This document shows positions 13,907 to 29,422 of a stretch of DNA of 64,000 nucleotides, in pieces. Location: the IMG/VR virus record IMGVR_UViG_3300036719_006047, positions 32,001 to 96,000 of that record; one strand, 5' to 3'. Origin of the DNA: a virus. Under the pieces are notes generated by a model. It was not told the origin of the DNA. It did not search any database and saw only the letters and a program-made list of their open reading frames with translations. A program made the translations under genes and the position numbers. The number at the start of each line of letters is the position of its first letter. The first letter of the stretch is position 1.

Positions 13907-14389
13907 TCAGAAGAGGTCGAAGGGGTTGTTAGCGGCATTCTTCGCCTTCTTTCTGTCCGCAAAGCCGGGACCCTCGCCCCAAGCCTTCTTTCGGCCCGAC
14001 AAGAGGCGATCGCGATGGTTCAGCTCAGCCGCCGCAAGTGCTGCCAGCTCACGGTCGGAGCCCGCAGCGATCTGCGCGAGAAGCTCAGACGTTGCAGCCG
14101 CAAGATCAGCCTTGTGTGCGAAAGCAGACACTTCAAACGCCACGGGCGCGGTGTAAGTGCGATCTCGCTTCGGCAAACGCCCCGCCTTCTGCGCGCCCTT
14201 GAAAGAACGACGGCCTGCGTTCTGTCTCGCGGAAGAGCACTCGCTCGGATTGGCGTGCATCCAGCGCTTGCCGCCCTTGGGGCCGACCTCGGTGGGATGC
14301 TGACAAATCTGGCTCTCTCCGGGAGTGAACTCTTCTCCGCACTCTACGCAGCTCTGCCCGGGGAACTTCGCTGTTCTGACGTCCTGCAT
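13907..14389 (-). CDS. hypothetical protein, possible Zn finger (CxxC...H...C)
   Basis: ATG at 14389 with GGAG SD; CVEC..WMHANPSEC. Confidence 0.7.
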   Translation of the reverse strand: MQDVRTAKFPGQSCVECGEEFTPGESQICQHPTEVGPKGGKRWMHANPSECSSARQNAGRRSFKGAQKAGRLPKRDRTYTAPVAFEVSAFAHKADLAAATSELLAQIAAGSDRELAALAAAELNHRDRLLSGRKKAWGEGPGFADRKKAKNAANNPFDLF

Positions 14390-14474
14390 GTGTGTCTCCG
14401 GCCGATCGGCTCGATGTCTCTTTAGCAGTAGCACGCTGAGCCGAGGCCGACGCTTTCTTTCCGTACCTGAAGTG

Positions 14475-14936
14475 CTACATCTCGATCAGGTTGAGCTTGA
14501 ACGTCTTTATTACGAGCTTTCCGTCAGAATCGGATTGCGCCACAAGTCTATTTTCGCTTTCTGTTCGCGTTTGTCTCAGGTCCAGCAGAATAAGTCCTTT
14601 CATCTCGTTGAGTGTTGGCATGTTTGTCTGCCACAAGGTCTCGTTAATGTCTGCTTCCGCAAAGTTTGTTCCTGTCAGCTTGCTCGCGGTAAACTGAGCT
14701 CCTACCAAAGTAGCTCCGCTAAAGTTTGAGTTCGTGAAGTCCACGAAATCGTAATTGCTGAAGCTCAAGTCCAAATCAGAGAGGTCCAAGTTGGTGAAAT
14801 CGCTATACTGTTCGCCTTCTTTTCTCTTTATTTCTGGCTGTTCTTCTCCTGCCCCTTGCCCGCTGTGATCCCACTCGGAACACTTATCCGCAAAATCGAT
14901 GAGAAACACAACGCGGGGGTCAGACATATCGGCCAC
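14475..14936 (-). CDS. array pentapeptide-repeat protein A (153 aa, divergent)
   Basis: MADMSDPRV cap; few AT-rich repeats; SDGKLVIK tail. Confidence 0.92.
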   Translation of the reverse strand: MADMSDPRVVFLIDFADKCSEWDHSGQGAGEEQPEIKRKEGEQYSDFTNLDLSDLDLSFSNYDFVDFTNSNFSGATLVGAQFTASKLTGTNFAEADINETLWQTNMPTLNEMKGLILLDLRQTRTESENRLVAQSDSDGKLVIKTFKLNLIEM

Positions 14937-14944
14937 GGGTCACC

Positions 14945-15664
14945 TCAGTACCGCAAGGAGATACGCTTGATGCGTAGTTTACCGTCTTCTTCTGGCTGAA
15001 GCAAAAGATGTGGCTTCGCTTCGTCTTCAGCTGTAGGACTGGTCAGTAAAATTACATTGGCGCCCTTGAGGTTGGCGCGAGTGAGGTTGGCGCGAGTGAG
15101 GTTGGCACCAGCAAGATCGACGCGGGTCAGGTCGGCGGCGTAGAGGATGGCGCCGCTGAGGTCGGCGCGGCTGAGGTCGGCGCGGCTGAGGTTGGCGCTG
15201 TGGAGGCTGGCTTCGCTGAGGTTGGCGCCGATGAGCTTGGCGCCGATGAGCTTGGCGCCGTTGAGGTCGGCGTGTTCGAGGTCGGCGCCGTTGAGCTTCG
15301 CGCGGGCGAGGACGGCTTCTTCGAGGACGGCTTCTTCGAGGTTGGCGCCATCAAGGTTGGCGCCAGTGAGCTTGGCGCCGCGGAGGTCGGCGCCGCTAAG
15401 GTTGGCACCGCTGAGGTTAGCGCCTTTGAGCTTGGCGTCGATGAGGCCGGCGTCGGTGAGGTCGGCGCCGCCGAGCTTGGCGCCGGTGAGGTCGGCGCCG
15501 ATGAGGTTGGTAGTTTTGAGGTTTTCGCCGATGAGGTTGATATCAGACAGATCTTTGAGGTCAGACGGCAACAGCGGAATCTGCGATTTTTCTGCTTCAG
15601 CAACTCTGCATTCTTCTGCGTGAGACAGAACGCGAGGCACGCGAGGATCGGACATGTCTGCCAT
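14945..15664 (-). CDS. array pentapeptide-repeat protein B (239 aa, short C-cap)
   Basis: MADMSDPRV; A(D/N/K)Lxx repeats; [22 protein letters not shown]. Confidence 0.95.
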   Translation of the reverse strand: MADMSDPRVPRVLSHAEECRVAEAEKSQIPLLPSDLKDLSDINLIGENLKTTNLIGADLTGAKLGGADLTDAGLIDAKLKGANLSGANLSGADLRGAKLTGANLDGANLEEAVLEEAVLARAKLNGADLEHADLNGAKLIGAKLIGANLSEASLHSANLSRADLSRADLSGAILYAADLTRVDLAGANLTRANLTRANLKGANVILLTSPTAEDEAKPHLLLQPEEDGKLRIKRISLRY

Positions 15665-15672
15665 GGGTCACC

Positions 15673-16194
15673 TCAATAGCGTAGAGAAATACGTTTAATT
15701 TGTAATTTACCATCTTTTTCGGGTTGAAGCAGAAGATGTGGCTTCCGCTCGACGCTGGCAGGGCGGGTCAGTAGAATTACATTGCTGCTATTGAATTTAG
15801 TACCGCTAAACTTGGCGTTGGTGAGGTCGGCGCCGTTGAGCTTGGCGCCGGTGAGGTTGGTGCCGGTGAGCCTGGCGCCGGTGAGGTTGGCGCCGGTGAG
15901 GTTGGCGCCTTTGAGTTTGGCGTCGAAGAGGTCGGCTCCGGTGAGGTCGGCGTCGGTGAGGTCGGCGCCGGTGAGGTTGGCGCCCTGCAAGGAAGCGAGG
16001 GTGAGATCAGCGTTGGTGAGTTTGGCGCCAAGGAGGTTGGTGGTGTTGAGGTTGGCGTGGCTGAGGCTGATATTAGACAGATCTTTTAGTTCAGGCGGCA
16101 ATGACATAACAGGCCATTTTTGCACCACAGCTGAGCGACAAGCTTGTGCATGAGCGAGGACAAGTGGAACTCGGGGGTCAGACATGTCTGCCAT
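15673..16194 (-). CDS. array pentapeptide-repeat protein C (173 aa, short C-cap)
   Basis: Same caps as B. Confidence 0.95.
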
Positions 16195-16202
16195 GGGTCA
16201 CC

Positions 16203-16907
16203 TCAGTATTGCAAAGGGATACGTTTAATTTGTAGTTTACCATCTTTTTCGGGCTGAAGCAGAAGATGAGGCCCCGGTCTAAAATTACCCGTGGGGTTGG
16301 TCAGCAGAATTGCATTGGCGCCCGTGAGGTCGGCGCGGCGGAGGTTGGTGCCGGTCAGGTTGGCGCCGGTGAGGTTGGCACCGGTGAGGTCGGCGCCGGT
16401 GAGGTCGGCGTTGCTGAGGTTGGCGCCGTTGAGGTCGGCGCCGTTGAGCTTCGCGTTGGCGAGGTAGGCGCTTTCGAGGTCAGCGTTGGTGAGGTTGGCG
16501 TCTTTGAGGTTGGCGCTGCTGAGCCAGGCGCCTTTGAGGTCGGCGCCGGTGAGGTTGGCGCTGTAGAGCTTGGCGCCGTTGAGGTCGGCGCCGGTGAGGA
16601 TGGCGCCTCTGAGGTCGGCGCCGTTAAGATAGGAGTGGTTGAGGGTGGTGCCGGTCAGGTCGGCGCCGCCGAGGTTGGCGCCGGTGAGGTTGGCGCCGCT
16701 GAGGTTGGCGTTGGTGAGGTTGGCATTGGTGAGGTTGGCGTTGGTGAGGTTAGCGTCGCTGAGGTTGGCGCCGGTGAGGTCGATGCTAGACAGATCTCGG
16801 AGATCGTTAGGTAAGTCCGGTCTATCCTTGCCTTGATCAACAGACTGTCTACAAGCTTCTGCATGAGCGAGGACAAGAGGAACGCGGGGGTCAGACATAT
16901 CGGCCAC
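16203..16907 (-). CDS. array pentapeptide-repeat protein D (234 aa, short C-cap)
   Basis: GTG start; same caps as B. Confidence 0.95.
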
Positions 16908-16915
16908 GGGTCACC

Positions 16916-17599
16916 TCAGTACCTGAAGATGCGAGTCTTGATGCGAACTTTGCCGTCGGAGTGAAGCTCAACAACAAGATTCTTGCTCGCATTATCACTG
17001 GCTCCGACTCGCGCCGAACCAAGCATAATAAACTTTTGTGCTACGTCTTGCGGGAAGCCCGCCACGGCCACGTACAAGTATCTTCCTTCCGCTAACTGTG
17101 ACTGCGTGATCTTGGCTCCTTTCAACTCGGCGAAACCTATTTTCGCATTAGTGACATTTGCGCCAGTTAGGTCAGCGTCAGTGAAGTCTGTGTCATGTAG
17201 CACTGAGCCAGTGAGGTCAGCTTTACTCAAATTCGCTTCGCTCAAGTTAGCTTTGTCTAGTTTGGCGTAACGCAATACAGCAGAGCTGAGATTCGCGCCG
17301 ATGAGGTCTGCTCCGCTCAGATCGCAGTTCATCAGATTCGCTCTACTCAAGTTTGCTTTCTTTAGCTTTGCGCCGCGAAGCACAGCATTCCTCAAGTCGA
17401 CGCCGCTCAGATCAGACCCAGTGAAATCAACTCCCGCGAAGTTGGCAGAGCTGAGAACAGCTCCGCTTAGATCTATTCCAGGCAAAGAGGTCAACTCTTG
17501 GGGTAAATCGGGCTTCTCTTCCAGAAATTGAGCAGCTTCTTTGCAGACTTCCGCATAGGCAAGGACGGCTTCGACGCGAGGATCAGACATGTCCGCCAT
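16916..17599 (-). CDS. array pentapeptide-repeat protein E (227 aa, divergent long C-cap)
   Basis: IGFAELKGAKITQ..LVVELHSDGKVRIK. Confidence 0.95.
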   Translation of the reverse strand: MADMSDPRVEAVLAYAEVCKEAAQFLEEKPDLPQELTSLPGIDLSGAVLSSANFAGVDFTGSDLSGVDLRNAVLRGAKLKKANLSRANLMNCDLSGADLIGANLSSAVLRYAKLDKANLSEANLSKADLTGSVLHDTDFTDADLTGANVTNAKIGFAELKGAKITQSQLAEGRYLYVAVAGFPQDVAQKFIMLGSARVGASDNASKNLVVELHSDGKVRIKTRIFRY

Positions 17600-17607
17600 A
17601 GCCTACC

Positions 17608-18060
17608 TCACTCATCGTCCATTCGGAGTTGAGTAGCCCTGATCCTAACCTTTCCTGTCTCAGCTACCTGCGCGATCAATCTCGGTCTTCTGAGCTCTTC
17701 TGATATTTTCATGTATTGTTCGCCCAGGAGTATAAGACCTTTCACTGTTTCTAGATTTTTTCTGGGCAAACCCATACCTTCGATGTTGGCTCCTGTGAAG
17801 TTTGCTCCCTTTATGTTGGCTTTATACATGTACGTTCTGCTCAAATCACAACCTGTAAAATTTGTTTCGCTCAAGTCAGCACCATGGAAATCTAAACTAC
17901 TCAAAGTGGCAAAGCTCATGTCCGCTTTAGACAAATCTAACTTTTTCATGTCTCCTCTTCTGTGTGGGAATTGAGGTCTTTCCTTTCCTTCCTTGAGCGC
18001 TATCCTGCAGCGCTCGGCGTGCTTTAGCAAGTAGACAACGCGGGGGTCAGACATGTCCAT
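17608..18060 (-). CDS. array pentapeptide-repeat protein F (150 aa, divergent)
   Basis: MDMSDPRV..KHAERC; few repeats. Confidence 0.92.
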   Translation of the reverse strand: MDMSDPRVVYLLKHAERCRIALKEGKERPQFPHRRGDMKKLDLSKADMSFATLSSLDFHGADLSETNFTGCDLSRTYMYKANIKGANFTGANIEGMGLPRKNLETVKGLILLGEQYMKISEELRRPRLIAQVAETGKVRIRATQLRMDDE

Positions 18061-18068
18061 GAATCAGC

Positions 18069-18980
18069 TCAGTACTTGAAGATGGGAGTTTTGATGTGAA
18101 GTTTGCCGTCTGAGCGCAGTTCGACAACAAGTCTCTTTTTGGACTTTCGTTTCCAGGACGCAGGCGCTGGTTCGTGGGGCAAAATAACTTTTTCAGCTAC
18201 TTCTTTGGGGTAACCGTCTTGCGGTACATTGACATACTCTGCGCTATTCAATTGAATTTGAGTAATCTTCGCATCGGTCAAGTCGGCAAAACCTATTTGG
18301 GCGCGGTTGAGCTTGGCGCCGTAGAGGTGGGCGGCGCTGAGGTTGGCGCGAGTAAGGTTGGTCCCGGTGAGGTCGGCGCCGTAGAGCTTGGCGCGGGTGA
18401 GGTCGGCGCCCGTGAGGAAGGCGCCGGTGAGGTTGGCATCGGTGAGGTCAGCGTCTTCGAGGATGGCGCCGCCGAGCTTGGCGCCGGTGAGGTCGGCGCC
18501 GATGAGCTTGGCGCCGGTGAGGTTGGCGCCGGTGAGGTTGGCACCTTTGAGTTTGGCGCCATCAAGGTTGGCGCCAGTGAGCTTGGCGCCGCGGAGGTCG
18601 GCGCCGCTAAGGTTGGCGCCGGTGAAGTCGGCGCGGGTAATGTTGGCGTTGTAGAGGATAGCGGTGTAGAGGTTGGCTTTGGTGAGGTCGGCGCCTCCGA
18701 GGCTGGCGCCGTAGAGGTTGGCGCCGGTGAGGTTGGCACCGCTGAGGTTGGCGTTGGTGAGGTTGGCGCCGATGAGGTTGGCGCCGGTGAGGTTGGTGCC
18801 GCTGAGGTCGGCTTCGGCGAGGTTGGCGCCGGCGAGGTCGGCGCCGGTGAGGTCGATGCCAGAAAGATCTTTTAGCTCATGCGGCAGAGGAGGTATGCTC
18901 TTTTTCCACCACTTAGCTTCTCGACAAGCCTCTGCGTGAGCGAGGACAGCGATAACGCGGGGGTCGGACATGTTGGCCAT
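18069..18980 (-). CDS. array pentapeptide-repeat protein G (303 aa, ~40 repeats, long C-cap)
   Basis: [22 protein letters not shown] end. Confidence 0.95.
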
Positions 18981-18983
18981 GAA

Positions 18984-21818
18984 TCACTTCGATCTCGATT
19001 TGCTGCTAGCTTCTTGTGTGTTGAGTTGATGCATCCTTCTTTCCGCCTCTGCTGCAGTAGCGAAAGTGAGGAGGTCAGGCATCACTCTGTAAACGATGGG
19101 CCCCGAGAAGATGTCACTCTTCTCTGCGATGACGCGACGCGGCCCTGACTTCCTACCTACCGCTAGCATCTTTTCGTAGCGTACACGCTTAGCCCAAAAC
19201 TCAGCAGGATCGGCGATTATCTTTTCTACAGCTCTTTCGCGGCTCTCGGGTGTCGGCATGTTTGTGCCAGGAATGAGGAAGGGATAGGAATGCCTCCTTC
19301 CGGCAATCTGAAAAGCTCTTTGCTTTGCTTCTTCAGGACTGTAGCCTTCTCTCAAACCTGACTCAAAGATGGCCAACCGCATCCGTCGAATTTGCTCTTC
19401 GTACGGATCGAGCACCTCGATGCCGTCTTCTTTGGGGTTGGTGTTTGCCGTCTGTTTGTCTTTGGGCGCCTTGGCGTTGATGTTGTCGTAGCGCAGCCTC
19501 ATGACCTGTTCTGGCATCAATTCAGCCATCAAGATATGCAGATAGTCTCTAACGTTGACGCCTGCTCCTTTACCTGAACCTTCTTCGAGCAAAGTCTTGA
19601 ACTCAATCGGCATCTCGTTGAGCACTTGAGCCGGCTTTCTGTTGTACGAAGGCGCCGAAGAATAATCGTCTTGCGGTCCTTCCCCCAAAACGAGGCGCGT
19701 GTGGTTGCGCTTCTTCTCGATTCGGCTCATCAACGCAAACGAGAAAGGATCGTTGGGGATGACGTAGATGATTTTGGGCTCTACGTTCTGCTCGGGCCGG
19801 TTGATGCGGTCTTCTGCTTGCGCTTCGATGCCGGGGTTCGGCATGCGCTGAATGAACAACAGCGTGTCTGCTGCGCTCAGGTTCAACCCTTCGCTGCCTG
19901 CTCGGGTCAAGATGACAATGGCTCTCTTGTCCTTCGCGTCAAGTTTTTCGGGGAACCTCAGACGTCGGCTCAACTCATCGAAGTCGCTGTATTCGTCTCC
20001 AAGCTTCTTTGCGGCTGACTGCGGCGTCTTGATCGGCTCGAGCACACTCGACTTCTTTTCTGCCATGCTTACGCGAGAAGCGTCTGCAACGTAAATCCTG
20101 ATGTTCGGGAATGCCTCTCTCAGCTTCTCAAAAAGCTTCTTCACGACGTCTTTGTGGTAAGCAAAGATAACCATCGGCCTGTCGAAATCTTTGTTCTCCG
20201 TGTTGTTTATTCTGTTTGACACAGCAGCGATCGTGCCATCGATCACGCTGGTGCCCATTCCTTTCATGAGAGTCGGAGGGATTGGGATGTAACCGCCGTA
20301 AAGCAGTTTCTTCAGCTTGTCCTTGAACACGGCGACGACAGCAGGGCTGAGTACTTCAGCCGCTGGTCTGCCTTTGTTTTTCGTCAGGTAAGCGTCGAAT
20401 TCCTGGAACACCTTTGAGGCTGCGTTGATCTTTTTTGCGTATTCTGCTTTGTCGGACGCCTTTCCACTCTTCCGCGAAGATCTTGCGATGACCTCTTTCG
20501 ACTTCTCGATAGCGGCCATAACTTCTTCGATTCTCTGGCTGTCAGGCGGCAGAATCAGGTAGGCTCTCTTCTTCTCTCTGAGCTGGAAACGAGCCAAAGC
20601 TCCAGTCTCTACAGCAAGTCGCCTGGGGTGACGAGTGCCCTTCGCGTACAACTCTTTTTGCAGCTTTTTCTGGGGCTCCTCGTTCTCCCAGTCCTTGAAC
20701 GTGATGTGACCTGTCCTTGAGAGCGTCATATCGTCGAAGTTCAGTCCTGTCTTGGCAGACAAGAAAATCGCTTCGAGCGACTTCGCCATCTGCTCGTCTG
20801 CGACAGGGTAGTCGTGGTAAGGAACCTCACCCACCGGCTCGAGCATGTTCAGAATGCTGGCAAGCTCTCCTGGGTCGTTGAGCATCGGTGTGCCCGTCAA
20901 CGCCAGCACGTGGGGGATGTAGTTCGCCAAATAGTAGCAGACTTTTGTGTTTTCCGAGCCGTAGTACTTCAACCTGTGGGCTTCGTCGAACACAATGGTC
21001 TTGATCTTGGCTGTGATCAGGTCACGAACTTCGACCGCTTCTTTTTGCTGTGCAGGAGTTGGTAACTTTAGTCTTTTGCTTTTTGCCACGACCTCCTCGA
21101 CAGGCTCGCTCTCGTCCTCCATATCGTCCAAGCTTGATGCAAGCTCAACTCTATCTTCCTTTGCGCCGAACGCTGTGTAGTACTCGGGCAGGGCTCTGCC
21201 GGCATAAGCTCCTGCGGGCCAAAGTAACGTTCTCAGCATCTCATAGGTAACCAGAATTACACTGTTTTCGTTAGCTTCTTCGACCGTTCTTCTGAGCCTG
21301 TTTGATGCCTCTACCTCGACTACAGTGTAGTTTGTTCTCAGCGCAAAAGTGTTTTTCCAAGAAGGCAGAGCGCTTCTCGGACAAACAACGAGGGCAGGCA
21401 AGTAACTCTCTGTGTCCGTCTCGAGCGTTTGGCCCGCATCGCCTGCGGCAATCGTCAAAACAGCTGTAGTTGTCTTTCCTAAGCCCATAGGATCGAACAA
21501 GCCCGCTCTGCCGCCTCGGTACAAAGCGAACAGCATCCCGGCCATCTGGTAGGGCAAGGCTGGTTGGCCTTTGCTGTAAAACTTCTTCGCCTTGATAGCA
21601 TTATCGAGAACGGCTTTAGCGGCCGCATCGATCTTCTCGTAATCCTCTCCCGAGAAGCCGTACTTCTCGTTGATGATACCCGGATAGCGCGAGATCTTGC
21701 TCCCTGTGTCGGGAGTGATCTCTGCTACAGGACTTAAATTCTGCTTTTTGCCTCTCTTTGCGGGAGGGTTTTTGCGGAAGATGACTTCTCGGTCCGGGAG
21801 AAGAGCGATGCGGTACAT
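18984..21818 (-). CDS. SNF2/SWI2-family SF2 helicase
   Basis: FDPMGLGKT, IVFDEAH, LTGTPMLND, GSEGLNL, QAEDRINR. Confidence 0.92.
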   Translation of the reverse strand: MYRIALLPDREVIFRKNPPAKRGKKQNLSPVAEITPDTGSKISRYPGIINEKYGFSGEDYEKIDAAAKAVLDNAIKAKKFYSKGQPALPYQMAGMLFALYRGGRAGLFDPMGLGKTTTAVLTIAAGDAGQTLETDTESYLPALVVCPRSALPSWKNTFALRTNYTVVEVEASNRLRRTVEEANENSVILVTYEMLRTLLWPAGAYAGRALPEYYTAFGAKEDRVELASSLDDMEDESEPVEEVVAKSKRLKLPTPAQQKEAVEVRDLITAKIKTIVFDEAHRLKYYGSENTKVCYYLANYIPHVLALTGTPMLNDPGELASILNMLEPVGEVPYHDYPVADEQMAKSLEAIFLSAKTGLNFDDMTLSRTGHITFKDWENEEPQKKLQKELYAKGTRHPRRLAVETGALARFQLREKKRAYLILPPDSQRIEEVMAAIEKSKEVIARSSRKSGKASDKAEYAKKINAASKVFQEFDAYLTKNKGRPAAEVLSPAVVAVFKDKLKKLLYGGYIPIPPTLMKGMGTSVIDGTIAAVSNRINNTENKDFDRPMVIFAYHKDVVKKLFEKLREAFPNIRIYVADASRVSMAEKKSSVLEPIKTPQSAAKKLGDEYSDFDELSRRLRFPEKLDAKDKRAIVILTRAGSEGLNLSAADTLLFIQRMPNPGIEAQAEDRINRPEQNVEPKIIYVIPNDPFSFALMSRIEKKRNHTRLVLGEGPQDDYSSAPSYNRKPAQVLNEMPIEFKTLLEEGSGKGAGVNVRDYLHILMAELMPEQVMRLRYDNINAKAPKDKQTANTNPKEDGIEVLDPYEEQIRRMRLAIFESGLREGYSPEEAKQRAFQIAGRRHSYPFLIPGTNMPTPESRERAVEKIIADPAEFWAKRVRYEKMLAVGRKSGPRRVIAEKSDIFSGPIVYRVMPDLLTFATAAEAERRMHQLNTQEASSKSRSK

Positions 21819-21820
21819 GA

Positions 21821-22165
21821 TTAGAACCCACCCACTGAGTTTCTGTTTTCAGGAGCCGGCCCGAAACGAACGATACCGTTCACGACCTGCTTCTTCTCGA
21901 GAAGGTCTCTCTCGGTCGAGCCGTCCTCGCCCAGCTTCTGCTGCAGTTCAGCAATACCTACAGGCTCTTTCCTGTGAACAGAGCTGTTGTAAGCTGCTGT
22001 CTGCGGCACGAAATGTGGCGCAGAGAAGTAACCTGCCACCCCTCCGGCCGCTGCCGCCACCAACGGGATGTTGGAGTCCTCGTCAGCTTCGTACTTCTTG
22101 CCCAAGAAGTACCCGAGAGCTGCTCCGATGGCCGCCCCTGCGAGGCGTGCTGTATTCTGGGTCAT
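21821..22165 (-). CDS. small glycine-zipper membrane protein
   Basis: ATG at 22165 after GGAGG; AGAAIGAALGY and AAAAGGVAGY segments. Confidence 0.8.
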   Translation of the reverse strand: MTQNTARLAGAAIGAALGYFLGKKYEADEDSNIPLVAAAAGGVAGYFSAPHFVPQTAAYNSSVHRKEPVGIAELQQKLGEDGSTERDLLEKKQVVNGIVRFGPAPENRNSVGGF

Positions 22166-22293
22166 GGTGCCTCCAGTTCTGCCCACTGAGTCTCGCCTAA
22201 GTAGCGAGAACGCAGGGCATCCACGAGACACAATAGCCTTTGCCCGGTCTTTGGTCGCTTTACCGACCCGTCTTCGAGTGCTGCAGCTCTGCG

Positions 22294-22489
22294 TCAATAC
22301 TTTGAGACTCGATTCACGTTGTACAGAGCGTCTTCTCGCTTTAGGCTAATACTTCTTCTATTTTCTGCCTTTCGAGCTAAATCTCTTTGGCCGAAGGGGC
22401 TATAAGGTTGAGTTTGTTCTATCTGAATCGCTTCCTTGCACTATTTTTAGTGAGCTACAAGCTCGCCTGCGAGGGTCAGACATGCTCAT
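22294..22489 (-). pseudogene. decayed copy of the array gene
   Basis: 8 nt after the stop of H: ATG AGC ATG TCT GAC CCT CGC (MSMSDPR), then after a frameshift ELVAH*K*CKEA, matching LAHAKACxxA; no repeats. Confidence 0.7.
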
Positions 22490-22497
22490 GCATCAGC

Positions 22498-23121
22498 TCA
22501 GTACTTGAAAATGGGAGTTTTGATGTGAAGCTTGCCGTCAGAACGAAGCTCGGCGACAAGTCTCTTTTTGGCGACACGGCTCCCGCGATCGGCTTCTGGC
22601 TCGTGAAGAAAAATAACTTTTTCGGCTACTCCTTCGGGGTAGTCCAAATTCGCAACATCGCGATACCCTGCGCTATTCAATTGACTTTGAGTGATCTTCG
22701 CGTTGTTCAAATCAGCGAAACCGATGGAGGTCCTGAACAAGCTGGCGTCGGTGAGATTAGCGCCGGTGAGGTTGGCGCCCTTGAGGTTGGCTTCCCCGAG
22801 GCGGGCGCCGGTGAGGTCGGCGCGGGTGAGGTTGGAGCCGCTGAGGTTGGCGCCGGTGAGCTTGGCACCGGTGAGGTTGGCGTCGGTGAGGTTGGCTCCG
22901 GTGAGGTTGGCGCCGTAGAGGTTGGCGCGGAAGAGATTGGCGCCGGTGAGGTCGGCGTCGTTGAGCTCGGCTTCGGCGAGGTCGGCGCCGGATAGGTCGA
23001 TGCCAGAAAGATCTTTGAGATTATGCGGCAAAGAAGGTCTGCTATCTCCCCGAGCATAAGCTTCTTTGCAAGCCCTTGCGTGAGCGAGGACAGCGATAAC
23101 GCGGGGGTCGGACATGTTCAT
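22498..23121 (-). CDS. array pentapeptide-repeat protein H (207 aa, ~21 repeats)
   Basis: Shared caps. Confidence 0.95.
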
Positions 23122-23129
23122 GATTCACC

Positions 23130-23675
23130 TCAGTACTTGAAGATGGGAGTTTTGATGTGAAGTTTGCCGTCAGAACGAAGTTCAACGACAAGTCTTTTTT
23201 TGGCTTCAGTAAGCCCGCTGCTGGGTTCGTGAAGCAAAATGAATTTTTTAGCTGCTGCCACTGGGTAACCATTGTATGCTACATTTATATTGGACGAAGA
23301 TTCAATTTGGTCTTGCGTAATCTTCGCGTCGGTCAAGTCAGCAAAACCGATGTAGGCTTTGGTCAAGTTGGCGTCGGTGAGGTTGGCTCCTGTAAGATCG
23401 GAGTCGTTGAGGCTGGCGCGAGTGAGGTTGGCGCCGGTCAGGTTAGCGTTAATGAGGTTGGTTTTGCCGAAGATGGCACCGGTGAGGTTGGCGCCCGTGA
23501 GATCGACGCCCTCGAGATCGGTGTCACCGAGGCTGGCGTTCGTGAGGTCGATGCCAGAAAGATCTTTGAGCTCATGAGGCAGAGGAGGTCTGCTCTTTTT
23601 AAACCACTTAGCTTCTTTGCAAGCCCTTGCGTGAGCGAGGATAGCGACAACGCGGGGGTCGGACATGTTGGCCAC
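23130..23675 (-). CDS. array pentapeptide-repeat protein I (181 aa, ~16 repeats)
   Basis: Shared caps; GTG start. Confidence 0.95.
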   Translation of the reverse strand: MANMSDPRVVAILAHARACKEAKWFKKSRPPLPHELKDLSGIDLTNASLGDTDLEGVDLTGANLTGAIFGKTNLINANLTGANLTRASLNDSDLTGANLTDANLTKAYIGFADLTDAKITQDQIESSSNINVAYNGYPVAAAKKFILLHEPSSGLTEAKKRLVVELRSDGKLHIKTPIFKY

Positions 23676-23683
23676 GGTTCACC

Positions 23684-24544
23684 TCAGTACTTGAAGATGG
23701 GAGTTTTGATGTGAAGTTTGCCGTCAGAACGAAGTTCAACGACAAGTCTTTTTTTTACTTGGCGCTGCAAGCTATGACTTTTCTGTTGCAGCAAAATAAC
23801 TTTTTTTGCTATTTCTTTCGGGTAACCATCTTCTGCGACATCTGTGTGTTCAATAAAGTTCAGTTGGGCCTGAGTGACCTTAGCGTTAGTCAAATCTGCG
23901 AATCCCAAATCAGCGTAGTTGAGGTCGGCTCCCGTCAGATCAGCACCTGTGAGGTTAGCGCGGCTGAGCTTGGCGATGCTGAGGTCGGCACCAGTAAGGT
24001 CAGCCCCTTCTAAGTTAGCGCTTTTGATGTCGGCTCCGGTGAGGGCGGCGCCGTTGAGGTTGGCACGATTTAAGTTGGCACGGTTCAACTCGGAGTAGCT
24101 TAGCGTGGCTGAGCGGAGGGAAGCGCCGCTGAGATCAGCTCTGCTAAAATTGGCGTTGAGGCATTTGGCTGACTCAAGTTCTGCGTTGTTTAATTTGGCG
24201 TCGACAAGTTTGACTTCTTGAAGATTGGCGTCGGTGAGGTCGGCACCAGTGAGGTCTGCGCCCGTGAGATCCGCGGAATACAGTTGGGCGCCCGACAGCT
24301 TGGCACCCCTAAGGTCGGCGCCAGTTAGGTTGACTGCAGAGAGATTTGCACGCTCAAGCTTGGCGCCACTTAAGTTGGCTCCGGCAAAGTTGACGCCGAT
24401 GAGGCTGAGGCTGCTGAGGTCTATTCCAGATAATTCTTTAAGGTTTTCGGGGAATGGCGGTATGGTTTTTCCTGCGTTTTCGGCTTGGTAATGAGCCTTT
24501 ACGTAATCGAGCACGCGAGGGACACGGGGATCAGACATGTCCAT
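23684..24544 (-). CDS. array pentapeptide-repeat protein J (286 aa)
   Basis: Shared caps; more degenerate codons. Confidence 0.95.
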   Translation of the reverse strand: MDMSDPRVPRVLDYVKAHYQAENAGKTIPPFPENLKELSGIDLSSLSLIGVNFAGANLSGAKLERANLSAVNLTGADLRGAKLSGAQLYSADLTGADLTGADLTDANLQEVKLVDAKLNNAELESAKCLNANFSRADLSGASLRSATLSYSELNRANLNRANLNGAALTGADIKSANLEGADLTGADLSIAKLSRANLTGADLTGADLNYADLGFADLTNAKVTQAQLNFIEHTDVAEDGYPKEIAKKVILLQQKSHSLQRQVKKRLVVELRSDGKLHIKTPIFKY

Positions 24545-24552
24545 GAATCACC

Positions 24553-25299
24553 TCAATACTTGAAGATGGGAGTCTTGATGTAAAGTTTGCCGTCTGCACG
24601 CAGTTCAACGACAAGTCTCTTTTTAACTTGTTGCCTCGATCTTCTGAGTTCTGGATTGTGGAATAAAATAACTTTTTCGGCTACTTCTTTTGGGTAACCG
24701 TCTTGTGCTACATCAGTGTAAAGTGCGCTGTCTAGCTGGGCCTTAGTGATGTTCGCGTTGGTTAAGTCAGCAAAACCGATGTTGGCGGCGATGAGGTTGG
24801 CGGCGTTGAGGTTGGCGGCGGTGAGGTTGGCGTCGACAAGCTTGGCGTCGGTGAGGGTGGCGTGGGTGAGGTCGGCGCTGCTGAGGTCGGCGCGGCTGAG
24901 GATGGCGCTGCCGAGGTAGGCGCGGAGGAGCTTGGCGTCAGTGAGGTTTGCGTGGCTGAGGTCGGCGTTGGTGAGCTTGGTGTCAGTGAGGTCGGCGCGG
25001 CTGAGGTCGGCACCGTTTAACTTTGAGAAGTAGAGCTCGGCGGCGCTTAGGTCGGCACCTTCGAAGTTGGCGCGGGTGAGGTTGGCGCGGATGAAGTAGG
25101 CGCTACTGAGATTGGCACCGGTAAAGTCGGCACCTTCGAGGTTGGCGTCACTGAGGTTGGCACTGCTGAGGTCGATGCCAGACAAATCTAGGAGATTAGA
25201 AGCTAAGACTGGTCCGTCTTCTCTTCTATTTTTAGCTTCTTTGCAAGCCCTTGCGTGAGCGAGGACAAGAGGAACGCGGGGGTCAGACATATCGGCCAC
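24553..25299 (-). CDS. array pentapeptide-repeat protein K (248 aa)
   Basis: Shared caps. Confidence 0.95.
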   Translation of the reverse strand: MADMSDPRVPLVLAHARACKEAKNRREDGPVLASNLLDLSGIDLSSANLSDANLEGADFTGANLSSAYFIRANLTRANFEGADLSAAELYFSKLNGADLSRADLTDTKLTNADLSHANLTDAKLLRAYLGSAILSRADLSSADLTHATLTDAKLVDANLTAANLNAANLIAANIGFADLTNANITKAQLDSALYTDVAQDGYPKEVAEKVILFHNPELRRSRQQVKKRLVVELRADGKLYIKTPIFKY

Positions 25300-25307
25300 A
25301 GATCACC

Positions 25308-26069
25308 TCAGTACTTGAAGACGGGAGTCTTGATGTGCAGTCTGCCGTCTGCTCGAAGCTCAACAACAAGTCTTTTTTTGGCTGTTCGTTTCCAGGACGC
25401 AGGCGCTGGTTCGTGGGGCAAAATAACTTTTTCAGCTACTTCTTTGGGGTAACCGTCTTGCGGTACATTGACATACCCTGCGCTATTCAATTGAATTTGA
25501 GTAATCTTCGCGTTGGTCAAGTCAGCGAAACCTAATTTGGCACTTTTGAGGTCGGCGCCTTCGAGGTTGGCGCCGGTGAGGTCGGCGTCGGTGAGGTCGG
25601 CGCCGCCGAGGTCGGCGTCGGTGAGGTCGGCGCCGGTGAGGTTGGCGCCGCTGAGCTCGGCGCGGAAGAGTCTGACGCGGGTGAGGTTGGCTCCGCTTAG
25701 GTCAGCGCCCTCGAGCTTGGCGCCGTCGAGATCGGCGCCGCTGAGGTCGGCGTTGGTGAGGTTGGCGCTGCTGAGGTCGGCGCCTTCGAGAACGGCGTCG
25801 GTGAGGTTAGCGTCGGTGAGGTTGGCGCCGATGAGCCAGGCGCTGATGAGCTTGGCGCTGATGAGCTTGGCGTCGGTGAGGTTAGCGTCGGTGAGGTTAG
25901 CGTCGGTGAGGTCGGCTTCTTCGAGATTGGCGCCGGAGAGGTTGATGCCAGAAAGATCTTTGAGTTTATGAGGCAGAGGAGGTCTGCTCTTTCCCCCCGA
26001 CTTAGCTTCTCGACAAGCCTCTGCGTGAGCGAGGATAGCGATAACGCGGGGGTCGGACATATCGGCCAC
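25308..26069 (-). CDS. array pentapeptide-repeat protein L (253 aa, ~30 repeats)
   Basis: Shared caps. Confidence 0.95.
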   Translation of the reverse strand: MADMSDPRVIAILAHAEACREAKSGGKSRPPLPHKLKDLSGINLSGANLEEADLTDANLTDANLTDAKLISAKLISAWLIGANLTDANLTDAVLEGADLSSANLTNADLSGADLDGAKLEGADLSGANLTRVRLFRAELSGANLTGADLTDADLGGADLTDADLTGANLEGADLKSAKLGFADLTNAKITQIQLNSAGYVNVPQDGYPKEVAEKVILPHEPAPASWKRTAKKRLVVELRADGRLHIKTPVFKY

Positions 26070-26077
26070 AGATCACC

Positions 26078-27046
26078 TCAGTACTTGAAGATGGGAGTCT
26101 TGATGTGCAGTCTGCCGTCTGCTCGCAGTTCAATGACAAGTCTCTTTTTGGCCTTTCGCTTGTGTGGTATAGGTTCTGGTTCGTGAAGCAAAATAACTTT
26201 TTCGGCTACTTTTTTAGGGTAACCGTCTTTTGCTACATCGACATAATTTGAGGCATTCAATTGATCTTGAGTAATCTTCGCGTTGGTCAAGTCAGCGAAA
26301 CCTATTTCGGCTCTTTTGAGGTCGGCGCCTTCGAGGTTGGCGCCGGTGAGGTTGGCGTTGGTGAGGTTGGCGCCGGTGAGGTTGGCGTCGCTGAGTTTGG
26401 TGCTGTGGAGGTTGGCACCGGTGAGGTTGGCGCCCCAGAGGTTGGCGCCGTTGAGGTCGGCGCCGGTGAGGATGGCGCCTCTGAGGTCGGCGCCGGTGAG
26501 GTTGGCACTGGTGAGGTCAGCGTTGGTGAGGTTGGCGCCGGTGAGGTTGGCGCCGACGAGGTTGGCGCCGGTGAAATTGGAGCCGATGAGCCAGGCGTCG
26601 CGGAGCTCGGCGCGGTTGAGGTTGGCGTAGTTGAGCTTGGCGCCGTTGAGCCTGGCGCCGGTGAGGTCGGCGCCCCCGAGGCGGGCATTCTCGAGGGCGG
26701 CGTCGGTGAGGTCGGCGCCGGTGAGGTTGGCGCCGCTGAGGTTGGCGCCTCTGAGGACGGCGCCGGTGAGGACGGCGCCGGTGAGGTTGGCGCCGTTGAG
26801 GTCGGCGCCGGTGAGGTTGGCGCGGGTGAGGTTGGCGCCGTTGAGGTCGGCGCCGGTGAGGATGGCGCCTCTGAGGTCGGCGCCCTCGAGCTTGTCGCCG
26901 TCGAAATCGGCGCCGGTGAAGTCTATGCCAGACAGATTTCTAAGATTAGAGGGTAAGACTGGAACGATTTCTCCCTGCTGCTTAGCTTTTTGGCAAGCCT
27001 TTGCGTGAGCGAGGACAGCGATAACGCGGGGGTCGGACATGTTCAT
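26078..27046 (-). CDS. array pentapeptide-repeat protein M (322 aa, ~44 repeats)
   Basis: Shared caps; longest member. Confidence 0.95.
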
Positions 27047-27054
27047 GATTCACC

Positions 27055-27855
27055 TCAATACTTGAAGATGGGAGTCTTGATGTAAAGTTTGCCGTCTGCT
27101 CGCAGTTCAACGACAAGTCTCTTTTTGGCTATTCGTTCCCAGGACGTAGGCGGTTCGTGAAGCAAAATAACTTTCTCGGCTACTTCTTTGAGGTAGCCCA
27201 AATCCGCAACATTGACATAATTTGAGTCATCCAATTGATCTTGAGTAATCTTCGCGTTGGTCAAGTCAGCGAAACCTATTTCGGCGCCGTTGAGGTCGGC
27301 GCCGGTGAGGTCGGCGTCGGTGAGGTCGGCGCCGGTGAGGTTGGCGCCGCTGAGCTCGGCGCGGAAGAGTCTGACGCGGGTGAGGTTGGCGCCGTTGAGG
27401 TCGGCGCCGGTGAGGTTGGCGCCGTTGAGGTCGGCGCCGGTGAGGATGGCGCCTCTGAGGTCGGCGCCGGTGAGGTTGGCACTGGTGAGGTCAGCGTTGG
27501 TGAGGTTGGCGTCTTTGAGGTTGGCGCTGTTGAGCTTGGCGCTGTTGAGGTTGGCGCGGGTGAGGTTGGCGCTGTAGAGCTTGGCGCCTCTGAGGTCGGC
27601 GCTGAAGAGCCAGGCGCCGCTGAGGTTGGCGCCGTTGAGGTCGGCGCCGGTGAGGTCGATGCCGGTGAGCTTGGCGTCGGTGAGGTCGGCGCGGGTGAGG
27701 TTGGCGCCGGTGAGGTCGGCGCCGGTGAGGTCGATGCGATAAATATCTTTGAGAATATGCGGCAGAGAAGGTCTGCTTCTTTTCTGCCGATTAGCTTCTC
27801 GACAAGCCTCTGCGTGAGCGAGGACAAGAGGAACGCGGGGGTCGGACGTGCCCAT
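27055..27855 (-). CDS. array pentapeptide-repeat protein N (266 aa, ~33 repeats)
   Basis: Shared caps. Confidence 0.95.
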
Positions 27856-27863
27856 GAATCACC

Positions 27864-28406
27864 TCAGTACTTGAAGATGCGATTTTTGATGTGAAGCTTG
27901 CCGTCCGCTCGCAGCTCAACAACAAGTCTTTTTTTGGCAACACGGTTCCAATCGACAGTTTCGTGAAACAAAATAACTTTTTCGGCCACTTCCTTAGGGT
28001 AACCCTGATATTCTACATCACGGTAAAATGCTTCTTCCAGCTGGGCCTGAGTGACCCTCGCGTTGGTTAAGTCAGCAAAACCTATTTTGGCGCGGTTGAG
28101 GTTGGCGCCGTTGAGCTTGGCGCCGTTGAGGTCGGCGTCTTCGAGGTAGGCGCCTCTGAGGTTGGCGCCCGTGAGGTCGGCGCCGATGAGGTCGGAGCCG
28201 CGGAGGTTAGCGTCGGTGAGGTCGGCGTTGGTGAGGTTGGCGCCGGCGAGGTCAGCGTCTTCGAGATTGGCGCCGGAGAGGTCGATGCCAGAAAGATCTT
28301 TGAGCTCATGAGGCAGAGGAGGTCTGCTCTCTTCCCCCCAAAAAGCTTCTCGACAAGCCTCTGCATGCGCGAGGATAGCGACAACGCGGGGGTCGGACGT
28401 GTCCAT
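27864..28406 (-). CDS. array pentapeptide-repeat protein O (180 aa, ~16 repeats)
   Basis: Shared caps. Confidence 0.95.
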   Translation of the reverse strand: MDTSDPRVVAILAHAEACREAFWGEESRPPLPHELKDLSGIDLSGANLEDADLAGANLTNADLTDANLRGSDLIGADLTGANLRGAYLEDADLNGAKLNGANLNRAKIGFADLTNARVTQAQLEEAFYRDVEYQGYPKEVAEKVILFHETVDWNRVAKKRLVVELRADGKLHIKNRIFKY

Positions 28407-28414
28407 GAATCACC

Positions 28415-29137
28415 TCAGTACTTGAAGATGGGAGTTTTGATGTGAAGCTTTCCGTCTGCGCGCAATTCGACGACAAGTCTCTTTTTGGCAACACGGTTCT
28501 TGGACACAGGTTCTTTCGCGTGAAGCAAAATAACTTTTTCGGCTACTTCTTTGGGGTAACCGTTTTGTGCAACATCGACATACCATCCTCTATCCAATTG
28601 AGCTTTAGTAATCTTCGCGTTGGTCAAGTCGGCAAAACCTAAGTTAGCTTCACCTCCTGAGTAGAGTTCACCTAAGTAGACGCCGGTGAAGTCGGCGTCG
28701 GTGAGATTGGCGCCGGTGAGGTCGGCGTAGCTGAGGTTGGCGCGGTTGAGGTTGGCGCCAGTGAGGTTGGCGCCGTGGAATCTGGCGGCGCTGCCGAGCT
28801 TGACGTCGGTGAGGTCGGCTCCGGTGAGGTCGGCGCTGTCGAAGTAGGCGCTGCTGAGGTCGGCGCCGGTCAAGTTGGCGTCGGTGAGGTTGGCGCCTCT
28901 GAGGTCGGAATTGCCGAAGTAGGCGCCTCTGAGGTCGGCGCTGCTGAGGTCGGCGCCGGTGAGGTTGGCGTCGGTGAGCAAGGCTTCGATGAGCCGGGCG
29001 CCGGAGAGGTCGATGCCAGACAGATATCTAAGATTATAGGGCAAGCGTGAAGAGAGTCTTCCCTGCTGCGTAGCTTGTAGACAAGCCTCTGCGTGAGCGA
29101 GGACAGCGATAACGCGGGGGTCGGACATGTTGGCCAC
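28415..29137 (-). CDS. array pentapeptide-repeat protein P (240 aa, first in transcription order)
   Basis: Shared caps; two out-of-register inserts. Confidence 0.95.
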   Translation of the reverse strand: MANMSDPRVIAVLAHAEACLQATQQGRLSSRLPYNLRYLSGIDLSGARLIEALLTDANLTGADLSSADLRGAYFGNSDLRGANLTDANLTGADLSSAYFDSADLTGADLTDVKLGSAARFHGANLTGANLNRANLSYADLTGANLTDADFTGVYLGELYSGGEANLGFADLTNAKITKAQLDRGWYVDVAQNGYPKEVAEKVILLHAKEPVSKNRVAKKRLVVELRADGKLHIKTPIFKY

Positions 29138-29140
29138 GGT

Positions 29141-29422
29141 TCACCTCGAAGGTTTTTTCTTTTCTGACTGCTTCTTCTTCACTGTCTGGTTGAGGACAGA
29201 AAGATGCATCAGAGCGGACAGAATAGCAGCTTGGCTTTGCTGAGGCAGGGATGCCTCTTCAGCTTCGAGTGCTGCAATCAAATTTTCTGTCTCCGCTTTG
29301 AGCTTGGACAACAACGATTTTGTCTGTTCCCTCTTCGACAGGGATAAAAGAGATGGCTGAAAGCCCTTCTTCCTAGCCTGTTTGGGTTGCTCTTGACCTT
29401 CTTGGGTTGTAGCTCTTGCCAT
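29141..29422 (-). CDS. hypothetical helical protein
   Basis: 93 aa; its stop lies inside the SD of gene P. Confidence 0.65.
   Translation of the reverse strand: MARATTQEGQEQPKQARKKGFQPSLLSLSKREQTKSLLSKLKAETENLIAALEAEEASLPQQSQAAILSALMHLSVLNQTVKKKQSEKKKPSR

What the first reader, a model, noticed from the sequence alone, without database searches (positions are those of the whole stretch)
14475..29137. Sixteen-gene tandem library of capped pentapeptide-repeat solenoids
Seen: 16 intact paralogs (150-322 aa) with a shared N-cap (MADMSDPRV..LAHAxAC..LP..LxDLSGIDL) and C-cap (..(R/E)xDGKL(H/R/Q)IK..(K/R/Q)Y in most members). Repeat counts vary about 16, 21, 30, 33, 40 and 44 in those counted. There are two C-cap subfamilies (short B-D, long E and G-P) plus divergent A and F. 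Known: pentapeptide repeats form right-handed quadrilateral beta-helices, some acting as DNA mimics; I know no phage array of this size and regularity, but cannot search. Inference: a constant-cap/variable-core repertoire, either DNA mimics of graded length titrating host DNA-sensing or cleaving defences or gyrase, or diversified binders assembled through common caps. Best candidate for a new system.
Basis: partly seen in the sequence, partly recalled or inferred. Interest (0 to 1): 0.92.

Follow-up and report, generated by a model that had tools for sequence, protein, structure and literature searches.

The report
Sixteen-gene phage pentapeptide-repeat protein array
An uncultured 137-kb phage spends about 8% of its genome on 16 back-to-back genes for rod-shaped pentapeptide-repeat proteins that share new, lineage-specific end pieces but differ in rod length and surface; their function is unknown, most likely an early host-directed role, and DNA mimicry is not supported.

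Summary
Sixteen intact minus-strand genes (150-322 aa, 14475-29137) plus one decayed 17th copy encode pentapeptide-repeat proteins. Each has a shared N-terminal capping helix, an almost ideal uninterrupted A(N/D)L(T/S)G beta-helix of 13-41 repeats, and a shared C-terminal tail. The genes are joined by identical 8-nt junctions in which a strong ribosome-binding site overlaps the preceding stop codon. An SNF2 helicase and a small glycine-zipper gene split the array in two.

The caps match nothing in Pfam, PHROGs or the PDB, and they are not DUF5758. Only about five cluster representatives among 1.84 billion proteins carry the C-cap, and none of 185,579 species genomes does. Related metagenome contigs carry the same tandem genes with conserved synteny, so the array is real and old. 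The tail is under strong purifying selection (pN/pS 0.14). Long identical DNA blocks, a chimeric natural variant and the fossil copy show recombination and birth-and-death turnover.

Charge (pI 4.3-9.5) and the Qnr/MfpA models argue against uniform DNA mimicry. Expression, binding partners and host remain untested.

This scan has met smaller arrays of the same kind on other phage DNA (2-9 copies, with different end domains). I class this as a new variant of a known but unstudied kind, and the largest example seen so far.

The parts
28415..29137 (-). Gene P (240 aa), first capped PRP gene of the operon; long C-cap; a 2-residue bulge in the core
27864..28406 (-). Gene O (180 aa), long C-cap, 13-14 repeats; AF2 model: N-helix 6-23 and beta-helix with pLDDT >90, C-cap <50
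27055..27855 (-). Gene N (266 aa), long C-cap
26078..27046 (-). Gene M (322 aa), longest member, 41-42 repeats
25308..26069 (-). Gene L (253 aa), the most acidic core (-16)
24553..25299 (-). Gene K (248 aa), long C-cap
23684..24544 (-). Gene J (286 aa), long C-cap, divergent N-cap lacking the Cys
23130..23675 (-). Gene I (181 aa); its 90% cluster has 10 variants on many independent contigs, including the O/I chimera P0006
22498..23121 (-). Gene H (207 aa), last intact gene of the upstream sub-array
22298..22497 (-). Fossil 17th cassette: junction plus MSMSDPR, a 2-nt deletion, no pentapeptides, decayed tail ending in K-Y-stop
21821..22297 (-). Small glycine-zipper (membrane-like) gene embedded in the array; synteny conserved in relative L082
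18984..21818 (-). SNF2-family helicase (944 aa) embedded in the array; its stop lies 3 nt before gene G's start
18069..18980 (-). Gene G (303 aa), long C-cap
17608..18060 (-). Gene F (150 aa), divergent caps; N-cap relative in L084
16916..17599 (-). Gene E (227 aa), divergent long C-cap; ortholog in L084 (support 98/96)
16203..16907 (-). Gene D (234 aa), short C-cap
15673..16194 (-). Gene C (173 aa), short C-cap; AF2 mean pLDDT 87; tail is a beta-hairpin 151-158/164-172
14945..15664 (-). Gene B (239 aa), short C-cap
14475..14936 (-). Gene A (153 aa), the most divergent and most acidic member (net -14), last gene of the array
29141..29422 (-). 93-aa gene of no known family heading the operon, 3 nt upstream of gene P

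Best explanation
This is a lineage-specific, old and actively recombining multigene family of one phage group. It has sixteen intact genes plus one fossil, laid out as one leftward operon that is probably translationally coupled, inside the replication and early-gene region.

Each product is a soluble rod with no signal peptide. It has an N-terminal capping helix, then an uninterrupted near-consensus right-handed quadrilateral beta-helix of 13-41 pentapeptides. From textbook PRP geometry that is about 3-10 coils, or roughly 1.6-5 nm. It ends in a conserved C-terminal module whose last ~24 residues form a beta-hairpin with an invariant D-G-K turn.

I infer that the conserved ends do a job common to all copies: they cap the solenoid and, through the selected tail, dock to one shared partner or handling step. 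The variable part, meaning rod length plus two adjacent faces rich in non-consensus and bulky residues, would give each copy a different target. The most likely role is an early, host-directed accessory panel for host takeover or counter-defence that works by protein binding.

New variants arise by unequal crossing-over and gene conversion within and between copies. These events change length in 5-residue steps, swap caps, and delete or add genes.

Shown here: the architecture, the novelty of the caps, the selection pattern, the recombination, and conservation in related phages. Inferred: co-transcription, early timing, cytoplasmic binding and the counter-defence role.
For: Across 343 pentapeptides, Ala is 86% at position 1 and Leu 94% at position 3.

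Fold: the helix and beta-helix have pLDDT >90, and the tail hairpin has pLDDT 56-72 in gene C.

Operon: every junction reads stop TGA, then GGTGAnnC, then the start codon. No sigma-70-like promoter and no strong terminator lies on the minus strand inside the array.

The caps are new and narrow. Pfam, PDB and Atlas give nothing. The C-cap is not DUF5758. A C-cap profile finds only 4 strong and 1 distant representative among 1.84 billion proteins. IMG/VR beyond this genome holds none, and neither do 185,579 species genomes.

Selection: pN/pS is 0.14 for the tail at pS 0.38, against 0.73 for the N-cap and for the I-O core.

Variable faces: non-consensus rates are 0.49 and 0.48 on two faces against 0.32 and 0.34 on the others, and bulky residues are enriched on the same faces.

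The array is old and maintained. Relatives L081-L085 carry 1-3 tandem capped genes. L082 keeps the order PRP, PRP, Gly-zipper, SNF2 at 79% nt identity. The E-type, F-type and short-cap subfamilies are shared between genomes.

Recombination and turnover: exact blocks of 100, 92, 84 and 78 nt stand on a ~75% identity background. P0006 is an O/I chimera. The fossil cassette is shown.

Early context: neighbours are the SNF2 helicase, DUF3987, a Dda-like helicase, NUDIX and a MoxR-like ATPase. PRP genes of cultured phages lie in early accessory operons. In Bruin the gene is beside the repressor. In a P22-like phage it lies between ral, sieB, kil, cIII and abc2.
Against: There is no expression, timing or interaction data, because the two tools that could have given read or contig evidence were unavailable. 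The host is unknown. The repeat surfaces are bland, mostly N, D, T, S and G, which is unusual for specific binders. The face-bias statistic treats related paralogs as independent, so its p-value is optimistic. The C-cap is poorly modelled in the long-cap member (pLDDT <50), so the idea of a docking tail rests on conservation alone. No promoter was recognised upstream of the operon.
Confidence: 0.45

Rival explanations
1. The proteins are DNA mimics of graded length, Qnr/MfpA-like, that bind host gyrase or topoisomerase, DNA-sensing defences, or the embedded SNF2 translocase.
For: They have the PRP fold, and MfpA, Qnr and AlbG appear among the fold hits. Some members are acidic: A is net -14, L has a core charge of -16, O is -8. 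Mean core charge is about -0.2 per repeat. A dsDNA translocase gene sits inside the array. Phages are known to target gyrase (PMC10886550).
Against: pI ranges from 4.3 to 9.5, and C, F, G, H, I and M are neutral or basic. Charge shows no bias between faces. Scores are 33-75 bits against a Qnr cut-off of 240, and 37-84 bits against an MfpA cut-off of 360. The repeats are uninterrupted, so there are no Qnr-type loops. The C-terminus is modelled as a beta-hairpin, not the dimerising helix typical of this class (PMC10886550). A threefold range in length fits no single DNA-site footprint. PRP DNA mimics McbG and QnrB did not inhibit BREX (PMC7261183).
Confidence: 0.15
2. The proteins are virion-associated: packaged or injected proteins, or fibre or decoration rods. 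The shared N- or C-terminal piece would be the common targeting or anchoring signal, as with the shared capsid-targeting peptide of T4 internal proteins (my own knowledge).
For: Unrelated-length cargo carries conserved termini. The tail is the most strongly selected part. One PHROG annotated as tail fibre contains a PRP segment. Beta-helical rods are common in phage fibres.
Against: The array lies among replication genes and shares an operon with a helicase. No structural gene is nearby. PHROG matches cover only the repeat core and are otherwise of unknown function. There is no conserved protease-site motif: the Glu in LAHAEAC varies to R, K or Q.
Confidence: 0.12
3. The family is a largely redundant or selfish expansion. 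Repeat-rich DNA amplifies by unequal recombination, and the copies add dosage of a single function, or nothing.
For: The repeats are near-consensus and bland. Gene conversion is evident. A fossil copy exists. A chimera implies deletion of five genes in a natural variant.
Against: Copies are old (synonymous divergence about 0.4-0.6) yet all 16 frames are intact despite indel-prone repeats. Distinct subfamilies are conserved across related phages. Lengths and charges differ widely between copies.
Confidence: 0.13
4. The array is an assembly artefact: a collapsed or chimeric short-read assembly of fewer genes.
For: The contig is metagenomic and repeat-rich. PRP genes are known to break short-read assemblies (PMC9238414). 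The read-level check could not be run.
Against: Paralogs are only ~75% identical in DNA and the longest exact repeat is 100 nt. All junctions and frames are intact. Independent assemblies of relatives show the same tandem layout and synteny. Gene I variants occur on at least 24 contigs.
Confidence: 0.03

Closest known systems
Phage early-operon pentapeptide-repeat proteins with a conserved C-terminal end domain (Mycobacterium phage Bruin gp54 = PRP + DUF5758/PF19062; P22-like Salfasec13b_046, orf232-type)
   Same: The architecture is the same: a PRP beta-helix of variable length joined to a conserved non-repeat C-terminal module. The genes are accessory genes in early or host-takeover regions, and their function is unknown.
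   Different: The end modules are not detectably homologous. Our proteins give no DUF5758 hit at E<=1, and hhalign probabilities are 7% and 2%. Those phages carry one or two copies, whereas this one has 16 plus 1 with an added conserved N-cap.
Small PRP arrays in other uncultured viral contigs (L056, L029, L008: 3-4 genes, each set with its own shared N- and C-caps)
   Same: They are tandem paralogs with constant lineage-specific caps and variable repeat number.
   Different: Their caps are unrelated, copy number is 3-4 rather than 16, and no helicase is embedded.
Qnr / MfpA / AlbG / McbG topoisomerase-directed PRPs
   Same: They share the right-handed quadrilateral beta-helix and a similar size range.
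   Different: Scores fall below the family cut-offs. Our proteins have no loops, no acidic uniformity and a different C-terminus.
Cyanobacterial PRPs Np275/Np276, Rfr23, Alr5209, HetL
   Same: These are the best structural and sequence matches to the repeat core, at 40-49% identity to Np275 and the derived synthetic Beta1.
   Different: The similarity is confined to consensus repeats and the caps are unrelated. Gene M passes the Alr5209 cut-off only by summing four repeat stretches over a protein three times that family's length.
Capped repeat-protein repertoires (lamprey VLR leucine-rich repeats, designed ankyrin binders) and repeat multigene families of giant viruses (own knowledge, not tested)
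   Same: They follow the same logic of constant N- and C-caps around a variable number of diversified repeats. Viruses do carry large repeat-protein families.
   Different: The fold is different, there is no somatic assembly, and the comparison is an analogy only.

Membership tests
Pentapeptide-repeat family (Pfam PF00805) | Tandem A(D/N)LXX repeats scoring above the Pfam gathering score | tested here: met
   E from 7e-13 to 4e-93 and 48-305 bits against a cut-off of 20.2. There are 343 in-register pentapeptides, with Ala 86% at position 1 and Leu 94% at position 3.
Pentapeptide-repeat family (Pfam PF00805) | Right-handed quadrilateral beta-helix fold | tested here: met
   AF2 models have core pLDDT >90. 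Foldseek top hits are Np275, Rfr23 and Beta1 at probability 1.00. This is a prediction, not a solved structure.
Qnr family | Score above the NCBIfam Qnr cut-off (240 bits) | tested here: not met
   33-75 bits.
Qnr family | Loops A and B interrupting the solenoid | tested here: not met
   Repeats are uninterrupted. The cap-to-cap distance is an exact multiple of 5 in 10 of 11 genes.
MfpA family | Score above the NCBIfam MfpA cut-off (360 bits) | tested here: not met
   37-84 bits.
MfpA/Qnr class | Binding to or protection of DNA gyrase | not testable with these tools
   This needs biochemistry, and the host is unknown.
DNA-mimic proteins (Ocr, ArdA, MfpA type) | Strongly and uniformly acidic surface | tested here: not met
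   pI 4.3-9.5 and net charge -14 to +5. About -0.2 charge per repeat, with no bias between faces. A few members (A, L, O) are acidic.
PRP + DUF5758 phage family (PF19062) | C-terminal DUF5758 domain | tested here: not met
   Bruin gp54 scores 2.5e-29 while our proteins give no hit at E<=1. hhalign probability is 7%. The six-frame genome search found none, although its control was silent.
Diversity-generating retroelement target | Reverse transcriptase and template repeat in the genome | tested here: not met
   No PF00078 match in the 136.9-kb record. The record is about 85% complete.
Known anti-phage defence components (PADLOC) | Match to a PADLOC model | tested here: not met
   No hit for genes H, M or C. 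Only the SNF2 helicase gives generic ZorD, DpdE and DrmD helicase hits.
Phage counter-defence / host-takeover proteins | Demonstrated inhibition of a host system; early expression | not testable with these tools
   Only gene context supports this.

The most novel reading that the evidence does not exclude
The array is a germline-encoded repertoire of capped beta-helix binders, a phage counterpart of capped repeat-protein immune repertoires. All members would dock through the conserved beta-hairpin tail to one common phage or host hub. That hub could be the co-operonic SNF2 ATPase or a host protease or chaperone. Each member would present a different length and surface to neutralise a different host defence protein or allele. 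Recombination between cassettes would continually generate new specificities.
Probability: 0.2. Interest if true: 0.85.

Novelty: new variant of a known kind. Interest (0 to 1): 0.58.

Why it matters
Phage genomes are compact, so committing about 8% of the genome (11,034 of 136,910 bases) to 16 maintained paralogs implies strong and diversified selection. Pentapeptide-repeat genes are among the commonest unexplained accessory genes of phages. They occur in 442 of 50,697 cultured-phage records, and long-read data suggest short-read assemblies under-count them 26-fold (PMC9238414).

This array offers a natural series that varies in length, surface and cap. It also offers a sharply defined, strongly selected tail motif. 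Together these could be used to find the partner and so the function of the whole class. If the members prove to be counter-defence binders, the array would be a new scaffold for inhibitor discovery and an example of repertoire evolution by cassette recombination in a virus.

Tried and rejected
1. Generic search of IMG/VR with gene H: 80 loci came back, all matching only the repeat core, and none carried the caps.
2. Cap-specific scans of IMG/VR with the C-cap and N-cap alignments, and with P0018 and P0012: no further members. Records very near this genome may be hidden by the tool.
3. Scan of species-representative genomes for the C-cap: nothing.
I therefore could not read the contexts of P0001, P0009 (a 44.5-kb contig), P0006 or P0018 (an 11.4-kb contig).
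6. Homodimer prediction of gene O: the job returned no verdict. It is evidence for nothing.
7. ESM Atlas search on the C-cap: only generic PRP clusters and structure hits with TM <0.5.
8. The weak C-cap profile hits P0016, P0017, P0019, P0020 and P0021 are low-complexity or generic repeat matches.
9. Promoter and terminator scan and the upstream spacer: nothing convincing.
10. Rfam: only the nine tRNAs.
11. Nearest cultured phages: the SNF2 helicase is 28-30% identical to actinophage helicases, and RIIA is 26-32% identical to T4-like phages. That is too remote to assign a host.
12. Literature: no paper describes phage PRP arrays or DUF5758.
13. A constraint on cap-to-cap azimuth (distance modulo 20) was considered and rejected, since the values 0, 10 and 15 all occur.
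14. The faint antifreeze-protein Pfam hits (CfAFP, E 0.0035 and 0.21) were judged to be repeat noise.

Full report
**1. What is there**

The window is bases 32001-96000 of a 136,910-bp IMG/VR viral record, classed as linear and about 85% complete. Phage identity is supported by a Dda-like helicase, an RIIA homolog, several ATPases and helicases, and an intein-bearing DNA polymerase. A cluster of nine tRNA genes adds to this.

On the minus strand between 29137 and 14475 lie 16 intact ORFs of 150-322 aa. All members tested are strong PF00805 pentapeptide-repeat proteins. Together they take 11,034 bases, or 8.1% of the record.

They form two runs: P-O-N-M-L-K-J-I-H (29137-22498) and G-F-E-D-C-B-A (18980-14475). 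Between the runs sit a decayed 17th cassette (22298-22497), a small glycine-zipper gene (21821-22297) and a 944-aa SNF2-family helicase (18984-21818).

Within each run the intergenic gap is always 8 nt and reads stop TGA, GGTGAnnC, then ATG or GTG. A near-perfect Shine-Dalgarno sequence therefore overlaps each preceding stop codon. The SNF2 stop is followed by gene G's start in the same manner. No sigma-70-like promoter and no convincing terminator occurs on the minus strand inside the array. One long, translationally coupled operon is the simplest reading, but that is an inference.

**2. Anatomy of the proteins**

The alignment shows an invariant S-D-P-R-V at residues 5-9, a conserved LAHAxAC...[13 protein letters not shown]-cap, and a tail shared by all 16 of the form hydrophobic-ILL, a short linker, (K/R)RLVVELRxDGKLxIK....Y. 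Genes E and G-P also have a 'head' of three repeat-like units ([10 protein letters not shown]-TQxQL) followed by [20 protein letters not shown]. Genes B-D lack this head, and A and F are divergent.

Between the caps the repeats are uninterrupted. The distance from the first repeat to the GFADL repeat is an exact multiple of five in 10 of 11 long-cap genes: 14, 14, 19, 23, 27, 28, 31, 35, 38 and 42 repeats. P has a 2-residue bulge. There is no preference modulo 20, so the two caps are not held at a fixed azimuth.

Over 343 pentapeptides the consensus is A(N/D)L(T/S)G, with Ala at 86% and Leu at 94% of the inward-pointing positions. That is unusually close to an idealised repeat.

AlphaFold2 models give an N-terminal helix (residues 6-24) packed on a beta-helix with pLDDT >90. 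In the short-cap gene C (mean pLDDT 87) the tail forms a beta-hairpin, strands 151-158 and 164-172, with the invariant D-G-K at the turn and pLDDT 56-72. In the long-cap gene O the whole C-cap is poorly modelled, with pLDDT <50.

The nearest solved structures are cyanobacterial PRPs (Np275, Rfr23, alr1298) and synthetic proteins derived from them. MfpA, AlbG and Qnr rank lower.

**3. Are the caps a known family?**

No. Cap-only segments hit nothing in Pfam at E<=0.05, nothing in PDB sequences beyond the repeat-like head, and nothing useful in the ESM Atlas. PHROG matches cover only the repeat core and are annotated 'unknown function', apart from one tail-fibre family that contains a PRP segment. 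PADLOC gives nothing.

A lead from earlier scan notes was that phage PRPs often end in DUF5758. I tested it directly. Bruin gp54 scores 2.5e-29 on PF19062, whereas our proteins give no hit even at E<=1. Profile comparison with the Bruin and P22-like end domains gives probabilities of 7% and 2%. The architecture is shared, but the end module is different.

**4. Distribution**

A C-cap profile run against 1.84 billion cluster representatives, with no length limit, found four strong hits and one distant hit (P0018). All are 60-210 aa, and every one that extends to the N-terminus (P0012, P0013, P0018) also has the N-cap. P0001 is a further complete member found through the N-cap.

IMG/VR holds no further member. 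None of 185,579 species-representative genomes holds one either, so the family does not look host-derived.

The JGI metagenome scan returned five short contigs (L081-L085) with 70-77% identical C-caps. Three of them hold two or three capped genes in tandem. L082 continues from two PRP genes into the glycine-zipper gene and the start of the SNF2 gene at 79% nucleotide identity, so synteny is conserved. L085 places a capped gene next to the ortholog of this contig's left-end gene, which is a different position.

Cap trees are short but pair E with L084a (98/96), F with L084c, and the B/C N-caps with the L083 genes. The subfamilies therefore predate the split between these phages.

**5. Evolutionary dynamics**

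Paralogs are about 75% identical in DNA, yet they share exact blocks of 100, 92, 84 and 78 nt. That is far beyond chance and indicates gene conversion or recent exchange.

Among the ten long-cap genes G-P, the last 24 codons have pN/pS 0.14 at pS 0.38. The C-cap head gives 0.39, the N-cap 0.73, and the length-matched cores of I and O 0.73. The tail is therefore kept by purifying selection and not merely homogenised.

P0006, a member of gene I's 90% cluster from another assembly, has gene O's first ~27 residues fused to gene I's remainder. That is the product expected from unequal crossing-over between the two N-caps with loss of genes N-J. A short-read assembly chimera cannot be excluded.

The fossil cassette keeps the junction, MSMSDPR and a decayed tail ending in K-Y-stop, but it has lost all its pentapeptides.

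There is no reverse transcriptase in the record, so a DGR is not the diversifier.

**6. How unusual is it?**

Of 80 other viral loci holding a PRP gene, 62 have one, 14 have two, one has three and three have four. The three- and four-gene sets L056, L029 and L008 each have their own shared N- and C-caps and variable repeat numbers.

PRPs occur in 442 of 50,697 cultured-phage records. Long-read viromics reports a 26-fold enrichment of PRPs over short-read assemblies (PMC9238414).

The scan's own notes list smaller phage PRP families of two to nine copies with other end domains.

The kind is therefore recurrent but unstudied, and this array is its extreme case with a new cap pair.

**7. Function**

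The DNA-mimic or gyrase reading is weak. pI spans 4.3-9.5 and net charge spans -14 to +5. Charge is spread evenly over the four faces at about -0.2 per repeat. Qnr and MfpA model scores are far below their cut-offs. There are no Qnr-type loops. The C-terminus is not the dimerising helix typical of that class (PMC10886550). Published tests also show that PRP mimics do not substitute for Ocr against BREX (PMC7261183).

Three observations favour a panel of binders with a shared docking or capping end:
- The selection is asymmetric: the tail is strongly constrained while the core is relaxed.
- Non-consensus and bulky outward residues concentrate on two adjacent faces counted from the N-cap (0.49 and 0.48 against 0.32 and 0.34; chi-square p about 0.001). 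The paralogs are not independent, so this p-value is optimistic.
- Distinct subfamilies are retained across related phages.

The position among replication and nucleotide-metabolism genes points to early, host-directed action. So does the early-operon position of PRP genes in Bruin and in a P22-like phage, where the gene sits beside ral, sieB, kil, cIII and abc2. That part remains inference.

Rivals are packaged or structural proteins with a shared targeting end, a largely redundant expansion, and, least likely, an assembly artefact. Each is listed with its own test.

**8. Limits**

Expression, read support, host identity and any partner are untested. The promoter of the operon was not found.

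**9. Verdict**

I class it as a new variant of a known but functionally unexplored kind, with interest 0.58.

Noticed in passing
window 22298-22497 (- strand): A fossil 17th cassette: correct junction and MSMSDPR, then a 2-nt deletion and early stops, no pentapeptides, and a decayed tail ending in K-Y-stop just before the glycine-zipper gene.
   Followed up: yes
P0006 (member of gene I's 90% cluster, from another assembly): A natural chimera: the first ~27 residues are identical to gene O's N-cap and the rest is identical to gene I. This implies unequal crossing-over that would delete genes N-J, or else a short-read assembly chimera.
   Followed up: partly
L085:326-1568: In a related metagenome contig a capped PRP gene lies next to the ortholog of this record's left-end gene (G000 71-637, 78% nt). 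Family members therefore occupy a second genomic position in relatives, or this contig broke at such a copy.
   Followed up: partly
window 4197-5057 (+) and 5060-5545 (-): Two further pentapeptide-repeat ORFs without the family caps, back to back beside a NUDIX gene (5547-6419).
   Followed up: partly
L056:5221-7315, L029:9914-13694, L008:4130-6632: Other uncultured viral contigs carry 3-4 tandem PRP paralogs, each set with its own shared N- and C-caps (for example, C-terminal W-P-E-G-F endings) and variable repeat numbers.
   Followed up: partly
L092:11776-16581 (G000 11776-16581, - strand): A 1601-aa DNA polymerase whose residues ~359-513 hit ribonucleotide reductase, PhoH and thymidylate-synthase PHROGs in short stretches. 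This pattern is typical of an inserted intein.
   Followed up: no
window 32001-36000: GC content jumps to 0.66-0.70 against about 0.54 elsewhere, just upstream of the nine-tRNA cluster (35011-36093).
   Followed up: no
window 9843-13076 (+): An ATPase (phrog_1297) is followed by a 543-aa protein of phrog_1314, which is annotated as HNH endonuclease but contains an HExxH-like motif and an acidic Gly/Ser/Asp-rich linker. They look like a coupled pair.
   Followed up: no
window 18984-21818 (- strand): The embedded SNF2 helicase gives generic hits to the defence-system helicases ZorD, DpdE and DrmD. Its nearest cultured-phage relatives are actinophage helicases at 28-30% identity.
   Followed up: partly
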